Below are positions 10,303 to 43,643 of a DNA stretch of 64,000 nt, piece after piece. The stretch covers positions 21,514,001 to 21,578,000 of the forward strand of contig OX597824.1 in NCBI GenBank assembly GCA_951406725.2. Direction: 5' to 3'. This stretch comes from Octopus vulgaris (Eukaryota). Positions within the stretch are counted from its first letter, which is position 1; each line of letters begins with the position of its first letter. Position numbers and translations under genes: made by a program. Under the pieces are notes generated by a model. It was not told the DNA's origin and made no database searches. It saw nothing but the letters and a program-made list of their open reading frames with translations.

Positions 10303-11078
10303 CTACAGTGCAGGTGGCAAGTAAAGAAACACTGTTTCGACCCCGTGCTTGAGGAGACCTATTGAGTCAAGTATATCAACATCAAAAATCAATAGAAATT
10401 GTAGTTGTGATCCCTGTACCGGTGGCACGTAAAAAGCACCGTCCGAATGTGGCCGATGCCAGTGCCGCCTTGACTGGCTTCCGTACCGGTGGCACATGAC
10501 CTGCTGTGCTTGAGGAGACCTATTGAGTCGAGTATATCAACATCAAAAATCAATAGAAATTGTAGTTGTGATCCCTGTACCGGTGGCACGTAAAAAGCAC
10601 CATCCGAACGTGGCCAATGCCAGTGCCGCCTTGACTGGCTTCCGTACCGGTGGCACATGACCTGCTGTGCTTGAGGAGACCTATTGAGTCGAGTATATCA
10701 ACATCAAAAATCAATAGAAATTGTAGTTGTGATCCCTGTACCGGTGGCACGTAAAAAGCACCATCCGAACGTGGCCGATGCCAGTGCCGCCTTGACTGGC
10801 TTCCGTGCCGGTGGCACGTAAAAAGCACCAACTGATCATGACCGCTGCCAGCCTCCCCTGGCACCTGTGCCGGTGGCATGTAAAAAGCACCCACTACAAT
10901 CACGGAATGGCTGGCGTTAGGAAGGGCATCCAGCTGTAGAAACACTGCCAGATCAGACTGGAGCCTGGTGCAGCCTCCTGGCTTCCCAGACCCTGGTCGA
11001 ACCATCCAACCCATGTTAGCATGGAAAACGGATGTTAAACGATGATGATGATGATGATGATGATGATAATGATGATGA
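10303..11078 (+). mobile_element. Repeat family D with (GAT)n tail; its 5' part is a 161-bp tandem triplication
   Basis: The unit tgtgcttgaggagacctattgagtc... repeats with 161-bp period. The 3' end gttaggaagggcatccagctgtagaaac...gttaaacgatgatgat is shared with 16610-17128, 23160-23380, 7850-8030(-) and 37720-37900(-). Confidence 0.75.
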
Positions 11079-14811: not shown

Positions 14812-14924
14812 ACTTCCATTATTCCCTCCGTAGAAGATCTAGACCCCGATGTTTTGTCAACTATGAATTCTTTACAGTGCTTTAAAGATAAAGAAAAACT
14901 TGTACAGGAATTATTAAGCTCAAA
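14812..14924 (+). CDS. BRSK2: BRSK/SAD exon: UBA domain part 1 (TSIIPSVEDLDPDVLSTMNSLQCFKDKEKLVQELLSSK)
   Basis: Boundaries ccacag|...|gtgagt. The peptide matches the BRSK UBA motif EDIDPDVLDSMHSLGCF. 113 nt, phase 0 to 2. Confidence 0.95.
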
Positions 14925-15995: not shown

Positions 15996-16096
15996 ACACA
16001 ATACGGAGAAAGTTGTATATTTTTTGCTGTTAGATAGAAAACTTAGAAACCCTAGCATAGAAGATGACATTGAAATCAGAAGTCGGAACGATGCAG
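15996..16096 (+). CDS. BRSK2: BRSK/SAD exon: UBA part 2 (HNTEKVVYFLLLDRKLRNPSIEDDIEIRSRNDA)
   Basis: Boundaries tttag|...CAG|gtaaat. It carries the EKxxYFLLLDRK BRSK motif. 101 nt, phase 2 to 1. Confidence 0.95.
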
Positions 16097-18959: not shown

Positions 18960-19768
18960 TTCTTTTCTCCTCTAGGTACAAGGCCCGAAATTTTGGGGAA
19001 GGGGTCCAGTTGATTAGATCGGCCCCTGTACGCAACTGGTACTTGATTTATTGACCCCCAAAAAGAAGATAGGTGAAGTTGACCTTGATGAAATTTGAAC
19101 TCAGAACGTAAAAACAGACAAAATATTGCCAAGCATCCTACCTGGCATGCTAACGTTTCTTATTTCTTTATTGCCTACTAGGGGCTACACACAGAGGGGA
19201 CAAACAAGGACAGATAAACGGATTAAGTCGATTATATCAACCCCAGTGCGTAACTGGTACTTATTTAATCGACCCTGAAAGGATGAAAGGCAAAGTCGAC
19301 CTCGGCGGAATTTGAACTCAGAACGTAGCGGCAGACGAAATACCTATTTCTTTACTACCCACAAGGAGCTAAACATAGAGGGGACAAACAAGGACAGACA
19401 GACAGACGGATTAAGTTGATTATATCGACCCCAGTGCGTAACAGGTACTTATTTAATCGACCCTGAAAGGTTGAAAGGCAAAGTCGACCTCAGCGGAATT
19501 TGAACTCAGAACGTAGCGGCAGACGAAATACCTATTTCTTTACTACCCACAAAGAGCTAAACATAGAGGGGACAAACAAGGACAGACAGACAGACGGATT
19601 AAGTTGATTATATCGACCCCAGTGCGTAACTGGTACTTAATTTATCGATCCCGAAAGGATGAAAGGCAAAGTTGACCTCGACAGAATTTGAACTCAGAAC
19701 ATAACGGCAGACGAAATACCGCTAAGCATTTCGCCCGGCGTGCTAACATTTCTGCCAGCTCGCCGCCT
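18960..19768 (-). mobile_element. Tandem multimer of SINE family B (central gcctttcatcctttcggggtcgataaattaagtacc domain)
   Basis: One full head plus 2-3 head-less repeats of about 180 bp. Single copies lie at 4500-4890, 11649-11880, 32490-32706, 37250-37645(-), 40272-40503, 55666-55898 and 57961-58180, with a cluster at 40795-41380. Confidence 0.8.
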
Positions 19769-20937: not shown

Positions 20938-21644
20938 CGAAGCTCATCATATATATATATATATATATATACGATGAGCTTCTTTCAGTTTCCATCTTTG
21001 GTCGGCCCGAGGCTATAGTAGAAGCTACTTACCACACAGTCTACTTACTACACAGGCCACTCCTACACCTATTGTTGACAAAACAGTGATAATAAGTTAC
21101 AAAATTAAACTTGTATTTATCAGGGATTACCAAAACAGAACTAAATGGATTTGTGGATCACTTACAAAGAAATTTCATTCAATGGTGTACTTTATTAAAA
21201 GCAGTGTTTTAAAGGATAGGACACCAGAATCAGATTTGGTTACAAGATTGCACGGTGCCATTATCAACCAGACACACACTGGAACAAAGTAAATCACTGA
21301 CAAACACAAAGACAGACAAATACACACACACACACGTACACACACACACACACACACGCTTATTGGCTTTCACACAGTTTCCCCCCTGCCAAATTCGTTC
21401 ACAAGGCATTGGTTGGCCCCGGGTTATAGTAGAAAACTTTTGTCAGAGGTGCCACTCATTGGCATTGAATTTGAAACCATGTGGTTGTGAAGCAAGTTTC
21501 TTAACCACGCACCCATGCCTATGCCTTTTAACATCCCATTAGTTTGCTTTATTCTCTCAGAAACTTCCTCTACCAAAATATAATTCGATTTTCTGAAGTG
21601 TAAGAATTCAGGTTTTTCAACTTTTAAATGTAAATATTTTTCAG

Positions 21645-21693
21645 ATCCTCCTAGAAAAAGAGTCGACGCAGTTCAACTGAATGGCTCTCAAAG
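21645..21693 (+). CDS. BRSK2: BRSK/SAD exon (DPPRKRVDAVQLNGSQS)
   Basis: Boundaries ttttcag|...AAG|gtaagg. DPPRKRVD is a BRSK hallmark. 49 nt, phase 1 to 2. Confidence 0.93.
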
Positions 21694-22692
21694 GTAAGGT
21701 TCTTAATGCTGTCTTTTACTGAAATCTATTAACTACCAAAAAGCTTCACCTAATTCTTCCAATACAATGGAATTGGTTTTTGTCCCTTACATTTTTATCA
21801 ATGAATTTCTGGTATAATAGTTTTTTAAAGAGAATTTTGAATTATGTTTTGTGAATTCTTAAGTTTAGATAGCCATCTTCTGCTGTAGAATTTATTTTTA
21901 ATTATTTCTGATATTTAACTATAAGCAAAAAAAAATGTTGGTAAGATTCTTTTTAAGATTATCTCTTTAGCACTCAGATTACTCTATCAAACCTAATGCT
22001 TATTTATCCACATAGTTTTTAATTAATTATGCATTATCACTTAGCTTTGAGATTTAACGATGTGATTGTTTATTTTTAGAATGACATTGTAGGGTATGTG
22101 TGAGGGGCCAGTTAAAGCCAGCTTGAACATAAGACAGGTAGAATAGTTGGGTTGGATATGACCAGTTTAAATATAAAATGCTTAGAATAAGAAGACGAAG
22201 AATTTGAAAAAAAAGAAAATGGAATAAAAAGAATCCTTTCCAATCATCATCATTGTCTTCATCATCATCATCATCATTATCATCTTCTTCAAATAACACA
22301 TTTATAATAGCAATTATTCATGATTAAGCAAGGTGATTTTTATTTACTTAAACTCATATATATATGCATTTTTTGTATGATAAACTCAGCTATCTTAGTT
22401 TCTATTTCTTTTAATTATTGAGTGAGAGAGCAGTGCATGCCATCAAAGTGATGGGAAATGAAATTGAGACTTACGTGGTTTGAGCTTGGTAGTATTCAAC
22501 TAGATGTTGTAGTAGATTGACTCCTTTCTTTGTGCGGATTTCATTGACTTTTATTAGATACTGCGAACAAACAGAAGTAGAAATTAGACAACAATTCTTT
22601 TTAAAAAAAAAGTCACTACATTACTGACCACAAGTAGATCATATCTTGATATAGTTAATGTATATTTAAGTTTGCAAATGAGAGACTAACAG

Positions 22693-23144
22693 AAAGTATG
22701 GAAAGCTAGCAGTACCAAAATCACAAAGTATGGAAGGCCAGCGGTGCCAAAATCACAAAGTATGGAAGGCCAGCGGTGCCAAAATCACAAAGTATGGAAG
22801 GCCGGCGGTGCCAAAATCACAAAGTATGGAAGGCCAGCGGTGCCAAAATCACAAAGTATGGAAGGCCAGCGGTGCCAAAATCACAAGGAACATGATTATA
22901 TGCATGCTGGCATTCCATATTTCGTGATTTTGTCACCACTGGCCTTCCATACTTAGTGATTTTGGCACCACTGGCCTTCCATACTTCGTGATTTTGGCAC
23001 CGCTGGCCTTCCATACTTCATGATTTTGGCACTGCTGGCCTTCCATACTTTGTGATTTTGGCACTGCTGGCCTTCCATACTTTGTGATTTTGGCACCGCT
23101 GGCCTTCCATACTTTGTGATTTTGGCACCGCTGGCCTTCCATAC
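22693..23144. repeat. Foldback array of a 32-bp unit (gtatggaaggccagcggtgccaaaatcacaaa): 6 forward copies, a ~19-bp spacer, 7.5 inverted copies
   Basis: Forward units start at 22696, 22728 ... 22856. Reverse units end at 22920, 22952 ... 23144. Confidence 0.95.
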
Positions 23145-23380
23145 ATATATACGTAACAAAGACCATCCGATCGTGGCCGTTGCCAGCCTCGCCTGGCACC
23201 TGTGTCGGTGGCACATAAAAAGCACTCACTACACTCATGGAGTGGTTGGCGTTAAGAAGGGCATCCAGCTGTAGAAACACCGCCAGATCTGACTGGCCTG
23301 GTGCAGCCTTCGGGCTTCCTAGACCCCAGTTGAACCGTCCAACCCATGTTAGCATGGAAAGCGGACGTTAAATGATGATG

Positions 23381-23430
<50 letters not shown>

Positions 23431-23959
23431 CTGTGTTAGCTGAAACTCTAGATCATCGAATCAAAATTTCCAATCATTACATTATTGAACATAATTGATT
23501 TGTATTATCAGCAGATTAGTTTACAAATTGTGTTCAATTCTCCACGCGATAAGTAGCAAAATAAATAAATAAATAGATAAATAAATAAATAAAACGTCTA
23601 ATCTATTTTTAACTTATTGTTGTCCAACCCTTACCAACATGGAAGATGGACATCAAAAGAAGAAGAAGAAGAAGAAGATGATGATATATTAGACTTTATA
23701 TTAGCTGAAAAGAATAGATTAAAGTGTGGAAAGTTATAGAAACATCGAAATTGATTTAGTATAGCTTTTTTATCGATTGTTCTTCTTCTTGTGAAGATGC
23801 GTAGGAGTGGCTGTGTGCTAAGTAGCTTGTTTACCAACCACATGGTTCCGGGTTCAGTCTCACTGTGTGGCACCTTGAGCAAGTGTCTTCTACTATAGCC
23901 TCAGGCCGACCAAAGCTTTTTGAGTGGATTTGGTAGACGGAAACTGAAAGAAGCCCGTC

Positions 23960-23995
<36 letters not shown>

Positions 23996-24000
<5 letters not shown>

Positions 24001-24304
24001 GACTTTGAGGCAGACTTTGTGACAGGCTTTGAAGCAAATTTTGAGATAGACTTTGAGATGGCCTTGAGATAGACCTTGAGGCAGACTTTGAGATCAACTT
24101 TGAGACAGACCTTGAAACAGATTTTGAGAGACTTTGAACTTGACTTTGAGACAGACTTTGAGGCAGACTTTGAGGTAGATTGTGTGGCAGGCTTTGGGAC
24201 AGATTTTGAGACAGACTTTGATGCAGACCTTGAGAAGATTTTGAGATAGACTTTGATGCAGACCTTGAAACAGACTTTGAGACAGACTTTGTGACAGACT
24301 TTGT
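23996..24304. repeat. Degenerate 12-bp minisatellite (agactttgagRc, about 25 copies)
   Basis: The period-12 repeats are directly visible and begin at the TA tract of a truncated SINE. Confidence 0.85.
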
Positions 24305-24661
24305 CTTCTACTTTGAGGTCCTTTTCTGTTTCAGTAAGGAGCAGACCTCAACATATGAAATACTGTGTACTCAACACCAGTTCACTCTCAGCATTGACTC
24401 CTGTATTGAACATGGATTTGTCGAGAGTTTCATTAGAACCATCACAATCAAAGCAGGACTTTCAAAAAAGTGCCTCTACCTTAGTTGTTAAAGTTTGGTG
24501 TTATAAGCAAGGCATCTAATACTAAATATGGATTTGGGCAGGAGGAAGTCAATACATAAGAAGTAATTGTTTTATAGGTATTCTCAGTTGTTGTATTTGC
24601 TGGACATAAGTAAATAGTGATCACATGTACATGTTTATATCTACATATGGTATGGGACATC

Positions 24662-25085
24662 ATGGCACAGCTGTTTCGGCACTATCAGTTTGGCATTGCT
24701 GATTTGACACTGATTTATTTGACATCAATGTTTTAATGTTTCTCTCATTCTCTCCTTTCTCCTCACTCTCCTTTTGTGTATGTGTGTGAGCATATCTCTC
24801 TTTATATCTATGAGGGGAAAATGGTAATGCCAGTTGTGTTCTGTTAATAAATTGTAATCTCTCTCTATCTATCTATCTATCTATCTCTCTATCTATCTAT
24901 CTCTCTATCTATCTATCTCTCTATCTATCTATCTCTCTCTCTCTCTCTGTGCATGCATGTATACATTTCTTCACGTTTATGAGTGTGTGTGTGTTTGCTT
25001 CCAGTGCCAAAAAGTACTGTTGCTAAAACAGGTTCAGTGTCCAGTTAGCCATGCCAAATTGCCAGTGTCAAACAGCCGCTCCCAG
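24662..25085. mobile_element. Old MITE with ~50-bp degenerate terminal inverted repeats
   Basis: Left arm gctgtttcggcactatcagtttggcattgctgatttgacactg versus right arm cagtgtccagttagccatgccaaattgccagtgtcaaacagc. A related end lies at 18071-18130. Confidence 0.55.
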
Positions 25086-26380
25086 TTGTCTCATTCTAAA
25101 ATATGTATATGTGTTTGAGTAAAATTACAGATATTAGGAGAATTGTGTGTGGGCGAAGCGTATGTGTTCCTAACTTGTGTATAATCTAAATTCAAATATA
25201 TCCTTATTTTCAAATTAGTTTTGATGGGTTTTGATAGGTTTGCAATAACAATATGCGATTTAGAATGTAATCATTTGAACTGAAAAAAATTTGTGAATTG
25301 TTACTGCACTTTTTCGTGTGCAACTTGGATTATTCCAACCAAAATTTACAGCCCAAAAATCGTAGTTTAATGCATACACAAAGATGATTTTGGAGGACCA
25401 AAAATGTTATGTGAAGTGCCGCAGGATTTGGAAAGATGGTGACACTGTTTGAATGTATACGCTATATTTGCATTTTATATTGTATTGACTTATATGCTGG
25501 AAAATACAATAATTCGACATACTGTGAGTGAAATAATTCTAGAAAGCAGAAACCATTACTATTTAGTACTGAGAAATAGATATGTAAATTGAAAAATATA
25601 ATGATTTCTTTTAACTTTTGATTGCTCCATTTTTTTACCATTTATCAAATGTTTGGAATTATTATGACATGGAATTATTATGTCATGTACTGTAGTATTT
25701 CTAAGATTGCTTTGCTTTCATTTCTGAAGCTTTTGCATTGGCTATATCTCTTCAAACTAAAATCTTATATTATAAATATGAATAAATACATAGAAATATT
25801 TAGTATAAGCGTACAAAGCAGTGAGAATCTAAATAAAGGTGTGTACAGTTTCTTTTAACATGTTTTTGTACACTAGAATGTGAAAGGCATTCACTGTGGG
25901 ATGTTGTCTTGGAGGAAAACATCATAAACTTTGCGTGAAACTCTATAGGAAACCACTATAGGACATTGTGTGTGAAAGCTCAAAGTTTTTACAGACGAAA
26001 AGAAATTTTTATGCCACTTGGATCTCGATTCGATGTGTTTTTGGTTACTTGGAGTTCAGCCCAATATGGTTTTATACACAAAGTCATTAGAGATGGTTAT
26101 TTTTTCTTTTCTTTGAGACAGAATCTTGCAGTGATTATCTTTCATGTCCAGCTGTCCAAGAATGTGTTGAAAATAAATGTACATGTCTATATATATATAG
26201 ATGTGTGTTGTGCGCATATATAATATATGGATGTATGTATGAGTGTGTGTGTGTATATATATATATATATGTATATATATATAAATATAAAAATAAAATA
26301 TAAAAAATATATATACATAAATACACACATCCCCTTACTGCTTCATGTGTTTATGCTAAATATATATATAGACATAACTT

Positions 26381-26427
<47 letters not shown>

Positions 26428-26498
26428 TGATATACATATATACACACACACACATATACATGTATATGTATGTGTGTATGTATGTATATATGTATGTA

Positions 26499-26530
<32 letters not shown>

Positions 26531-26611
26531 CATATATGATATACATATATACACACACACACACACATATACATGTATATGTATGTGTGTATGTATGTAT
26601 ATATGTATGTA

Positions 26612-26658
<47 letters not shown>

Positions 26659-26965
26659 TATATCATCTTAAAATCATCTTAATTAAAAACAAGAGAGTAA
26701 CTATTTTGTATCTTTTGCACAAAGGTATAGCTTAAAACTGTCATCATTACCATCATGCATTCTTCTACTAATTCCATGCTTCTTTTCTTCCAATGAATTT
26801 TTAAAGCTTCTCTGAAGAACTTTCCCAGGAATGAAAAAAAAAATTAAAATTAAAAAAAAACCTTCTGAAAATAGTGATATATTCTAACTGTAGCTGTTTA
26901 ATGTTAAACTCGAGCATGTGATTAACATGACGCCTATTCATCCTCTTATCTTTCTTTGCCTTCAG

Positions 26966-27037
26966 CCGACTTTCATTAGGCAGCATCAGTGAAGGGTCCC
27001 CTGTTGCTTCTCGGAGGGCACTTGCCATTCAGCAAGT
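26966..27037 (+). CDS. BRSK2: BRSK/SAD exon (RLSLGSISEGSPVASRRALAIQQV)
   Basis: Pyrimidine tract plus ttcag|...|gtaagt. GSPV..RRA matches BRSK GSPVPARRA. 72 nt, phase 2 to 2. Confidence 0.9.
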
Positions 27038-43519: not shown

Positions 43520-43643
43520 AATGACAAAACGGTCATGGTTTGGTGCTCTAATGGGAACAGAGCGAGAAGAACATCACTTTGTTATCGTACGTGACAAACC
43601 CTTGAGTCAAGTGAAAGCAGATTTAGTTCATGCTTTCCTTTCA
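43520..43643 (+). CDS. BRSK2: BRSK/SAD exon: AIS and KA1 start (MTKRSWFGALMGTEREEHHFVIVRDKPLSQVKADLVHAFLS)
   Basis: Boundaries ttttcag|...|gtaagt. It carries the K(K/R)SWFG autoinhibitory motif and DKPLS..KAD.VHAFLS. 124 nt, phase 2 to 0. Confidence 0.96.

What the first reader, a model, noticed from the sequence alone, without database searches (positions are those of the whole stretch)
22693..23144. 32-bp-unit foldback array: tandem repeats mirrored around a tiny spacer
Seen: 6 direct copies face 7.5 inverted copies across the spacer ggaacatgattatatgcat, able to form a ~190-bp duplex that can slip in 32-nt registers. A TGCATG (Rbfox motif) sits at the loop edge, and no clear TSD is visible. 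Established: foldback transposons have modular tandem-repeat TIRs. Inference: this is either an undescribed foldback/MITE family or a locally evolved hpRNA/ADAR substrate in the intron.
Basis: partly seen in the sequence, partly recalled or inferred. Interest (0 to 1): 0.7.

Follow-up and report, generated by a model that had tools for sequence, protein, structure and literature searches.

The report
Flipped repeat in copied gene fragment
This mirror-image repeat is real but is not a foldback transposon: it sits in a stray copy of a piece of another gene (an ASAP-type ArfGAP) found at about twenty places in this genome, and a copying slip likely turned part of that gene's intronic repeat backwards here, leaving a probably functionless hairpin in a kinase intron.

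Summary
The foldback is real: 6.1 direct and 7.5 inverted 32-bp units, and a contig from an independent run spans its centre. It is not a transposon end pair. The 32-bp repeat is native to an intron of an ASAP-type ArfGAP gene on another chromosome. A segment carrying two unspliced ASAP exons, the repeat, about 1 kb of intron, a microsatellite and a SINE 3' end occurs at about 20 loci. Eleven copies stop at the same SINE tail, with varied 5' ends, which suggests SVA-like retroposition.

The window copy (22414-23382) is one of these, rearranged. The 19-bp "spacer" is parent sequence from about 1.05 kb downstream of the array (exact in 9 of 18 sibling loci). The inverted arm replaces the parent's microsatellite and rejoins at a 5-bp microhomology. 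Other copies of the unit fold back with unrelated centres (16 junctions), so the unit is prone to snap-back.

The hairpin lies in an intron of a BRSK/SAD kinase gene. Incidental ADAR editing is plausible but untested, and nothing found points to a selected hairpin RNA.

The parts
21645..21693 (+). Host-gene exon (DPPRKRVDAVQLNGSQ), BRSK/SAD-type kinase; GT donor at 21694 opens the intron that holds the array
   Evidence: AG/GT borders; the only unique DNA covered by two RNA-labelled runs (label is a guess), and both differences in relative E are synonymous; flanking exons hit BRSK1/2 at E 2e-9 and 4e-12
22414..22692 (+). Left flank of the copied segment; 22414 is the 5' junction of the insertion
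   Evidence: Shared with 12 other loci; 7 differences in 245 aligned nt to the source locus L065; a contig of relative E follows the window to 22414 and then leaves it (record 6)
22414..22451 (-). 3' end of a very abundant repeat ending in (AAT)n, already present in the source intron (the RTE-type label is recalled, not tested)
   Evidence: Very high contig depth and loose ends on both sides; present in L065, L043, L064 and L090
22475..22560 (-). Copied 86-nt exon of an ASAP-type ArfGAP (BAR domain), with its splice sites
   Evidence: Translation; 117 protein hits at E<=0.001, and the two full-length ones scanned carry BAR-PH-ArfGAP-ANK-SH3; an RNA-labelled contig matches exactly 22475-22560 with the source allele; 11 genomic copies
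22693..22886 (+). Direct arm: 6.1 copies of the 32-bp unit (first unit of the ancestral type, the rest of the foldback-prone type)
22887..22905 (+). 19-bp centre: a piece of the parent's right flank that normally lies 1.0-1.06 kb downstream of the array, just before a microsatellite
   Evidence: Exact in 9 of 18 sibling loci, near-exact in most others; the spacer-to-arm junction is unique in the genome at up to 2 mismatches
22906..23144 (-). Inverted arm: 7.5 units, standing where the parent has an 80-154-bp (TA/CA)n microsatellite
   Evidence: 5-bp microhomology CATAC at 23140-23144 with the end of the parent's microsatellite
23140..23382 (+). Parent sequence resumed: end of the microsatellite, then the segment's own SINE 3' part ending in (GAT)n, which is the 3' end of the insertion
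   Evidence: 6 of 6 covered diagnostic SINE alleles match the segment's SINE; alignment
23381..23428 (.). (TA)n run after the tail, likely target-site DNA
26966..27037 (+). Next predicted host exon, in phase with the 21645 exon; closes the intron
   Evidence: Candidate exon scan; not checked with RNA

Best explanation
The foldback is an internal rearrangement of one dispersed copy of an ASAP-gene fragment, likely made by template switching at short homologies. Shown: the 32-bp minisatellite is native to an ASAP intron (G000:C4, L065). A segment of 2.3-3 kb or more (two unspliced exons, array, about 1 kb of intron, microsatellite, SINE 3' part) occurs at about 20 loci. The window copy reads left flank, 6 units, a jump of about 1.05 kb to a 19-bp piece, 7.5 inverted units in place of the microsatellite, then the SINE to its tail. 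Inferred: three template jumps (array to spacer, spacer to inverted array, inverted array to post-microsatellite), during or after insertion, produced it. The segment most likely spread as an upstream-initiated transcript, antisense to ASAP and ending in the SINE tail, copied by a LINE reverse transcriptase with 5' truncation (I put this step at about 60%). The hairpin would be transcribed in BRSK pre-mRNA and may be edited by ADAR as a bystander; no selected role is expected.
For: Source locus with flanking ASAP exons in order. Spacer exact in 9 of 18 siblings at the expected place. Sequence after the inverted arm is parent sequence, with CATAC microhomology and the segment's diagnostic SINE alleles (e2673 C in 10 of 12 family pieces and 0 of 35 other pieces). 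Eleven copies end at the same (GAT)n tail and share no sequence directly after it, while 5' ends are scattered. An independent microhomology deletion of the same flank is seen in L091. There are 16 close head-to-head junctions in 8 of 58 stretches, with at least six different centres, several folding at the unit's own TGG-NNNN-CCA hairpin. Foldback and inverted templated insertions through microhomology are documented in yeast (PMC11724301, abstract and outline only).
Against: Two of the three junctions have no exact microhomology against the parent (0 extra bases either side of the spacer); only imperfect matches can be argued. No donor for the inverted arm was found (best ungapped match 14 mismatches in 239 nt), so timing and template are unknown. 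No clean TSD in 9 copies with both ends defined; 5 of 9 have (TA)n on both sides, which could hide one. Several copies (L064, L069, L086-L088, L091) end at the microsatellite or in a different SINE and were left out of the count of 11; L076 and L077 were not scored. The diagnostic SINE sites were chosen with the window copy included. The window's 5' end coincides with an oppositely oriented repeat tail, so the direction of copying is not proven for this copy.
Confidence: 0.8

Rival explanations
1. Same anatomy, but the segment spread at the DNA level: breaks at (TA)n or in SINEs were repaired by copying from an ectopic template, and the inversion arose in that repair synthesis. This differs from the best explanation only in how the segment moved (about 35-40% for that step).
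For: No TSDs. Introns are retained. Many unit arrays sit in an AT-rich palindromic repeat with ragged ends and no SINE tail, which retroposition from this tail cannot explain. L094 has an inverted duplication of its flank. L086-L088 are larger segmental duplicates.
Against: Eleven copies stop at one tail, none runs on into shared downstream DNA, and five have no (TA)n directly after the tail. Diagnostic alleles persist to within about 60-80 bp of the tail in most copies.
Confidence: 0.35
2. A non-autonomous foldback transposon or MITE whose long TIRs are built from 32-bp repeats.
For: It looks like one: tandem-repeat arms around a short middle, and the unit is dispersed with other inverted pairs. 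Some other loci have short-repeat outer blocks around inverted 32-bp inner blocks.
Against: No TSD; the arm ends abut internal parts of the parent segment on both sides; the spacer-to-arm junction is unique; other foldbacks have other centres and no shared termini. The foldback Tetris has 8-10-bp TSDs and a flanking TIR domain (PMC4079207, passages).
Confidence: 0.05
3. A locally evolved, selected hairpin RNA or ADAR substrate that regulates the kinase pre-mRNA, with an Rbfox site in the loop.
For: It lies in an intron of a BRSK/SAD kinase and can form about 190 bp of duplex. Young repeats are the main A-to-I targets across animals (PMC9989829, passages). The junction is shared with a run labelled as another organism.
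Against: The insertion looks lineage-limited: a contig of relative E leaves the window at 22414. The centre differs at 7 of 95 nt between the window and organism C. The inner units carry private, pairing-breaking changes. TGCATG is a junction by-product and common in the window.
Confidence: 0.06
4. Assembly artefact: a direct array folded back by the assembler or by chimeric reads.
Against: An independent run spans the centre with its own variants; the arms carry different variants; the centre is parent sequence from 1 kb away rather than a read turn-around.
Confidence: 0.02

Closest known systems
SVA composite retrotransposons and their 5' transductions (PMC12593883, passages read)
   Same: Non-coding composite with a variable tandem array and host sequence upstream of a fixed 3' end; offspring copies act as new sources (L067/L069 and L073/L074 share extra 5' flank).
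   Different: No sequence relation tested or expected; about 20 copies only; (GAT)n tail rather than poly(A); no TSDs found; carries unspliced antisense exons of ASAP; retroposition is inferred, not shown.
Templated inverted (foldback) insertions at DNA breaks by microhomology-mediated template switching (PMC11724301, abstract and outline only)
   Same: Inverted copy of nearby sequence joined through short homology, with several switches in one event.
   Different: Those are mostly 5-34 bp and induced in yeast; this arm is 239 bp, heritable, and made of tandem units; only one of three junctions has exact microhomology.
Foldback transposons such as Tetris (PMC4079207, passages read)
   Same: Tandem repeats in inverted arms around a middle piece.
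   Different: No TSD, no flanking TIR domain, no shared termini or middle among copies; both flanks are internal to a larger segment.
Microsatellite-targeting non-LTR elements such as Dong, Waldo and Koshi (PMC3812793, passages read; Dong-R4 is listed among recently active LINEs of Octopus vulgaris in PMC13282606, part 1 of 3 read)
   Same: Copies often sit in or beside simple repeats (5 of 9 have (TA)n on both sides).
   Different: The LINE that would mobilise this SINE tail was not identified; the target here is (TA)n, whereas TAA is reported for Dong.

Membership tests
Foldback / MITE DNA transposon | Long inverted arms containing tandem repeats | tested here: met
Foldback / MITE DNA transposon | Arms are terminal: their outer ends are the element's ends | tested here: not met
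   Both flanks continue as parent-segment sequence
Foldback / MITE DNA transposon | Target-site duplication at the arm ends (8-10 bp in Tetris) | tested here: not met
Foldback / MITE DNA transposon | Other copies share termini and structure | tested here: not met
   Junction unique; at least six different centres among 16 junctions and ragged ends; not all loci of the genome were fetched
SVA-like retroposed composite / 5' transduction | Fixed 3' end at a retroelement tail | tested here: met
   11 copies end at one SINE (GAT)n tail; six or more further copies end elsewhere or were not scored
SVA-like retroposed composite / 5' transduction | Variable 5' truncation | tested here: met
   5' ends at about ten different positions
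SVA-like retroposed composite / 5' transduction | Target-site duplication | tested here: inconclusive
   None outside simple repeats in 9 copies; (TA)n on both sides in 5 of 9
SVA-like retroposed composite / 5' transduction | A transcript of the whole composite and a partner LINE with the same 3' tail | not tested
   No partner ORF was seen upstream of 62 tail motifs in the fetched DNA, a small sample; no genome-wide search was made and no transcript data were available
Microhomology-mediated templated inversion | Inserted pieces are templated from the same locus or family | tested here: met
   Spacer and inverted arm both trace to the parent segment
Microhomology-mediated templated inversion | Microhomology at the junctions | tested here: inconclusive
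   5 bp at one junction, no exact match at the other two
Hairpin RNA / ADAR substrate | Can form long duplex in a transcribed region | tested here: met
   (fold predicted; intron inferred from flanking exons)
Hairpin RNA / ADAR substrate | Phased small RNAs or A-to-I edited reads | not testable with these tools
   Only contigs were served; no raw RNA reads

The most novel reading that the evidence does not exclude
An SVA-like composite retroposon arose de novo in an octopod: an ASAP intron minisatellite plus two exons became mobile by borrowing a SINE tail, spread through secondary masters, and seeded a unit variant that folds back again and again and travels inside a dispersed palindromic AT-rich satellite. 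This would be a traceable route from one intron VNTR to a genome-wide generator of long dsRNA.
Probability: 0.4. Interest if true: 0.6.

Novelty: new variant of a known kind. Interest (0 to 1): 0.35.

Why it matters
As an object the hairpin is an ordinary by-product. It is useful as a worked case: a structure that looks like a foldback transposon can be rebuilt junction by junction from a non-transposon parent, which is a caution for repeat annotation. The parent family matters more. If retroposition is confirmed, it is an invertebrate parallel to SVA-type capture of host exons and a VNTR, with a known source gene and a countable set of copies. It would also show one way in which an animal with abundant A-to-I editing acquires new intronic double-stranded RNA.

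Tried and rejected
- A conserved foldback centre: the spacer-to-arm junction has one hit in the genome.
- Simple twin-priming 5' inversion: rejected because left flank, direct arm, spacer and SINE all keep one orientation and only an internal piece is inverted.
- Snap-back copy of the present left arm: rejected because the right arm is longer and has its own variants.
- A donor for the right arm: none found among the fetched loci.
- TSDs: none in 9 copies.
- Locating the ASAP gene with Pfam BAR_3: missed it (5 other matches); it was found by exon scan.
- The PDB hit of the 28-aa exon alone was weak (ASAP3, E 0.79).
- The idea that the AT-rich palindromic repeat derives from the 32-bp unit: left open, since 7 of 12 loci picked by that repeat hold no unit.
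- Expression: no RNA holder listed; no raw reads, so editing and small RNAs are untested. Runs X1, X2 and X4 show no cover of the spacer, which is not evidence.
- Earlier notes of this scan: none near this place or like these sequences.
- Literature searches listed no paper on this family. The library lacks most subscription papers, and the repeat library of PMC13282606 (supplements and parts 2-3 not seen) may contain it.

Full report
Observation. The array is as described: 6.1 copies of a 32-bp unit at 22693-22886 face 7.5 inverted copies at 22906-23144, pairing over up to 195 nt at 92% in several 32-nt registers, with a predicted RNA fold of -366.7 kcal/mol, z = -34. All 12 matches of the unit core in the window lie here, against 0 in shuffles. 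In 1 of 4 runs laid on the centre (X6, a different organism label from the best holders) a 98-nt contig spans 22857-22951 with 7 differences; the other three give no cover of the spacer. The centre is therefore real DNA. The genome is 2.8 Gb; that it is an octopus is my inference from its size and repeats, in line with earlier unchecked notes.

Setting. Exon scanning gives a + strand gene with exons at 14812-14924, 15996-16096, 26966-27037 and 43520-43643; two of them hit BRSK1/2 structures at E 2e-9 and 4e-12. The exon at 21645-21693 was missed by that scan but has AG/GT borders and is the only unique DNA covered by two RNA-labelled runs in 21400-22692 (the RNA label is a guess). The array thus lies in the intron 21694-26965 and would be transcribed as pre-mRNA (inferred).

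The unit is dispersed. The exact 29-mer core occurs 220 times in the genome, 110 on each strand. I fetched 58 stretches chosen by similarity to the unit or its flanks, so not a random sample and partly overlapping; they hold 187 arrays. Sixteen junctions are close head-to-head foldbacks like this one, in 8 stretches including the window, and 2 are close in the other orientation. Their centres differ: a turn at the unit's own TGG-AAAG-CCA hairpin (L035, L044, L049), 1-2 nt turns (L045), other turns in L035, L048 and L070, and a repeat-filled gap (L101). Tandem duplicates make some of the 16 non-independent. The outer ends of these patches share no terminus. This is the pattern of repeated snap-back events, not of a transposon family.

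The array belongs to a larger copied segment. The 29 bp left of the array occur at 13 loci, a right-flank anchor at 18 and the part at 22455-22592 at 11; by my tally of these lists, about 20 loci in all. Mapped on one natural copy (L043), the segment reads: left flank, array, about 1.05 kb unique DNA, a 19-bp piece, a (TA/CA)n microsatellite, and a SINE 3' part ending in (GAT)n. On the minus strand it carries two exons with intact splice sites and the intron between them. The first exon hits 117 proteins at E<=0.001; the two full-length ones scanned have BAR, PH, ArfGAP, ankyrin and SH3 domains. Of six loci scanned, only L065 (G000:C4, 161.36 Mb) has the neighbouring exons in order, one of which hits ASAP3 at E 9e-8. 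The minisatellite is therefore native to an ASAP intron and the other loci are copies.

The window copy. It starts at 22414, where a contig of relative E stops matching (record 6; its further letters were not shown). Its left flank differs from the source at 7 of 245 aligned positions. After 6 units it jumps to the 19-bp piece, exact in 9 of 18 sibling loci and 1,006-1,056 bp downstream of the array there; the second ASAP exon is lost in that gap. The inverted arm then stands where siblings have 80-154 bp of microsatellite (4 copies measurable) and rejoins parent sequence through CATAC at 23140-23144. The SINE that follows has 6 of 6 covered alleles diagnostic of the segment's own SINE; of 74 other SINE pieces only one, covering a single site, matched all the sites it covered (sites were chosen with the window copy included). 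So both flanks and the loop of the foldback are internal to the segment. The other two junctions have no exact microhomology, and no donor for the inverted arm was found, so whether the switches happened during insertion or later is open. L091 shows a separate deletion of the same flank at a short homology.

How the segment spread. Eleven copies (L043, L045, L066, L067, L068, L070, L075, L085, L089, L090 and the window) end at the same SINE tail and share nothing directly after it, while 5' ends fall at about ten positions. Copies left out of this count end at the microsatellite or in another SINE (L064, L069, L086-L088, L091) or were not scored (L076, L077). No TSD was found in 9 copies; 5 of 9 have (TA)n on both sides. 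A fixed retro-tail with ragged 5' ends is what reverse transcription of an upstream-started transcript gives, as in SVA 5' transduction (PMC12593883, passages); the transcript would be antisense to ASAP, which explains the retained intron. I put this at about 60%, against DNA-level templated copying at about 35-40%, which the missing TSDs and the tail-less patches favour.

Function. TGCATG at 22901 was created at a junction (siblings read TGCATA) and occurs 43 times on the + strand of the window. A duplex of this length in pre-mRNA is the kind of young-repeat structure that A-to-I editing targets in animals (PMC9989829, passages), so bystander editing is plausible, but no raw RNA reads were served. 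Seven differences in 95 nt around the centre between the window and organism C and private changes in the inner units do not suggest conservation.

Comparison and novelty. It resembles foldback elements such as Tetris in outline, but fails the terminal-arm, TSD and shared-terminus tests (PMC4079207, passages). It works like a templated inverted insertion (PMC11724301, abstract and outline) inside an SVA-like composite. Searches listed no description of this family; the O. vulgaris repeat annotation (PMC13282606, part 1 of 3, supplements not seen) may include it unnamed. Verdict: real, explained, probably functionless; the parent family is of moderate interest.

Noticed in passing
L031-L050, L076-L082, L092-L114 (e.g. 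L034:3200-5350; G000:C3 near 10.71 Mb): A dispersed AT-rich cryptic repeat made of short palindromic words (GAAAATTTTC and kin), 0.2 to over 6 kb, with ragged ends. Perfect 8-mer palindromes are 73 per kb against 10 in shuffles; one 32-mer has 191 exact hits. It hosts most foldback-type unit arrays, but 7 of 12 loci picked by it hold no unit. Origin and mode of spread unexplained.
   Followed up: partly
L086, L087, L088 (G000:C6 110.3 Mb, C10 17.06 Mb, C30 1.97 Mb): Three copies share up to 3.5 kb of further upstream DNA at about 95% identity, so the segment was also multiplied inside a larger duplication.
   Followed up: partly
L076, L077, L078, L091 (G000:C1 20.01-20.06 Mb): A cluster of tandemly repeated copies mixing right flank, arrays and the palindromic repeat.
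   Followed up: partly
L067:2100-5270: Two copies of array plus right flank face each other in inverted orientation about 0.6 kb apart.
   Followed up: no
L094:4040-5660: A patch of the palindromic repeat is flanked by a 21-bp inverted duplication of unique DNA.
   Followed up: no
window 23996-24303: A degenerate 12-bp minisatellite (AGACAGACTTTG, 26 copies) in the same intron.
   Followed up: no
window 21379-21503 and 23819-23943: An inverted repeat pair (125 nt, 71%) brackets the exon at 21645-21693 and the array.
   Followed up: no
window 10345-10817 and 19161-19720: Tandem arrays of 161-bp and 188-bp SINE-like pieces.
   Followed up: no
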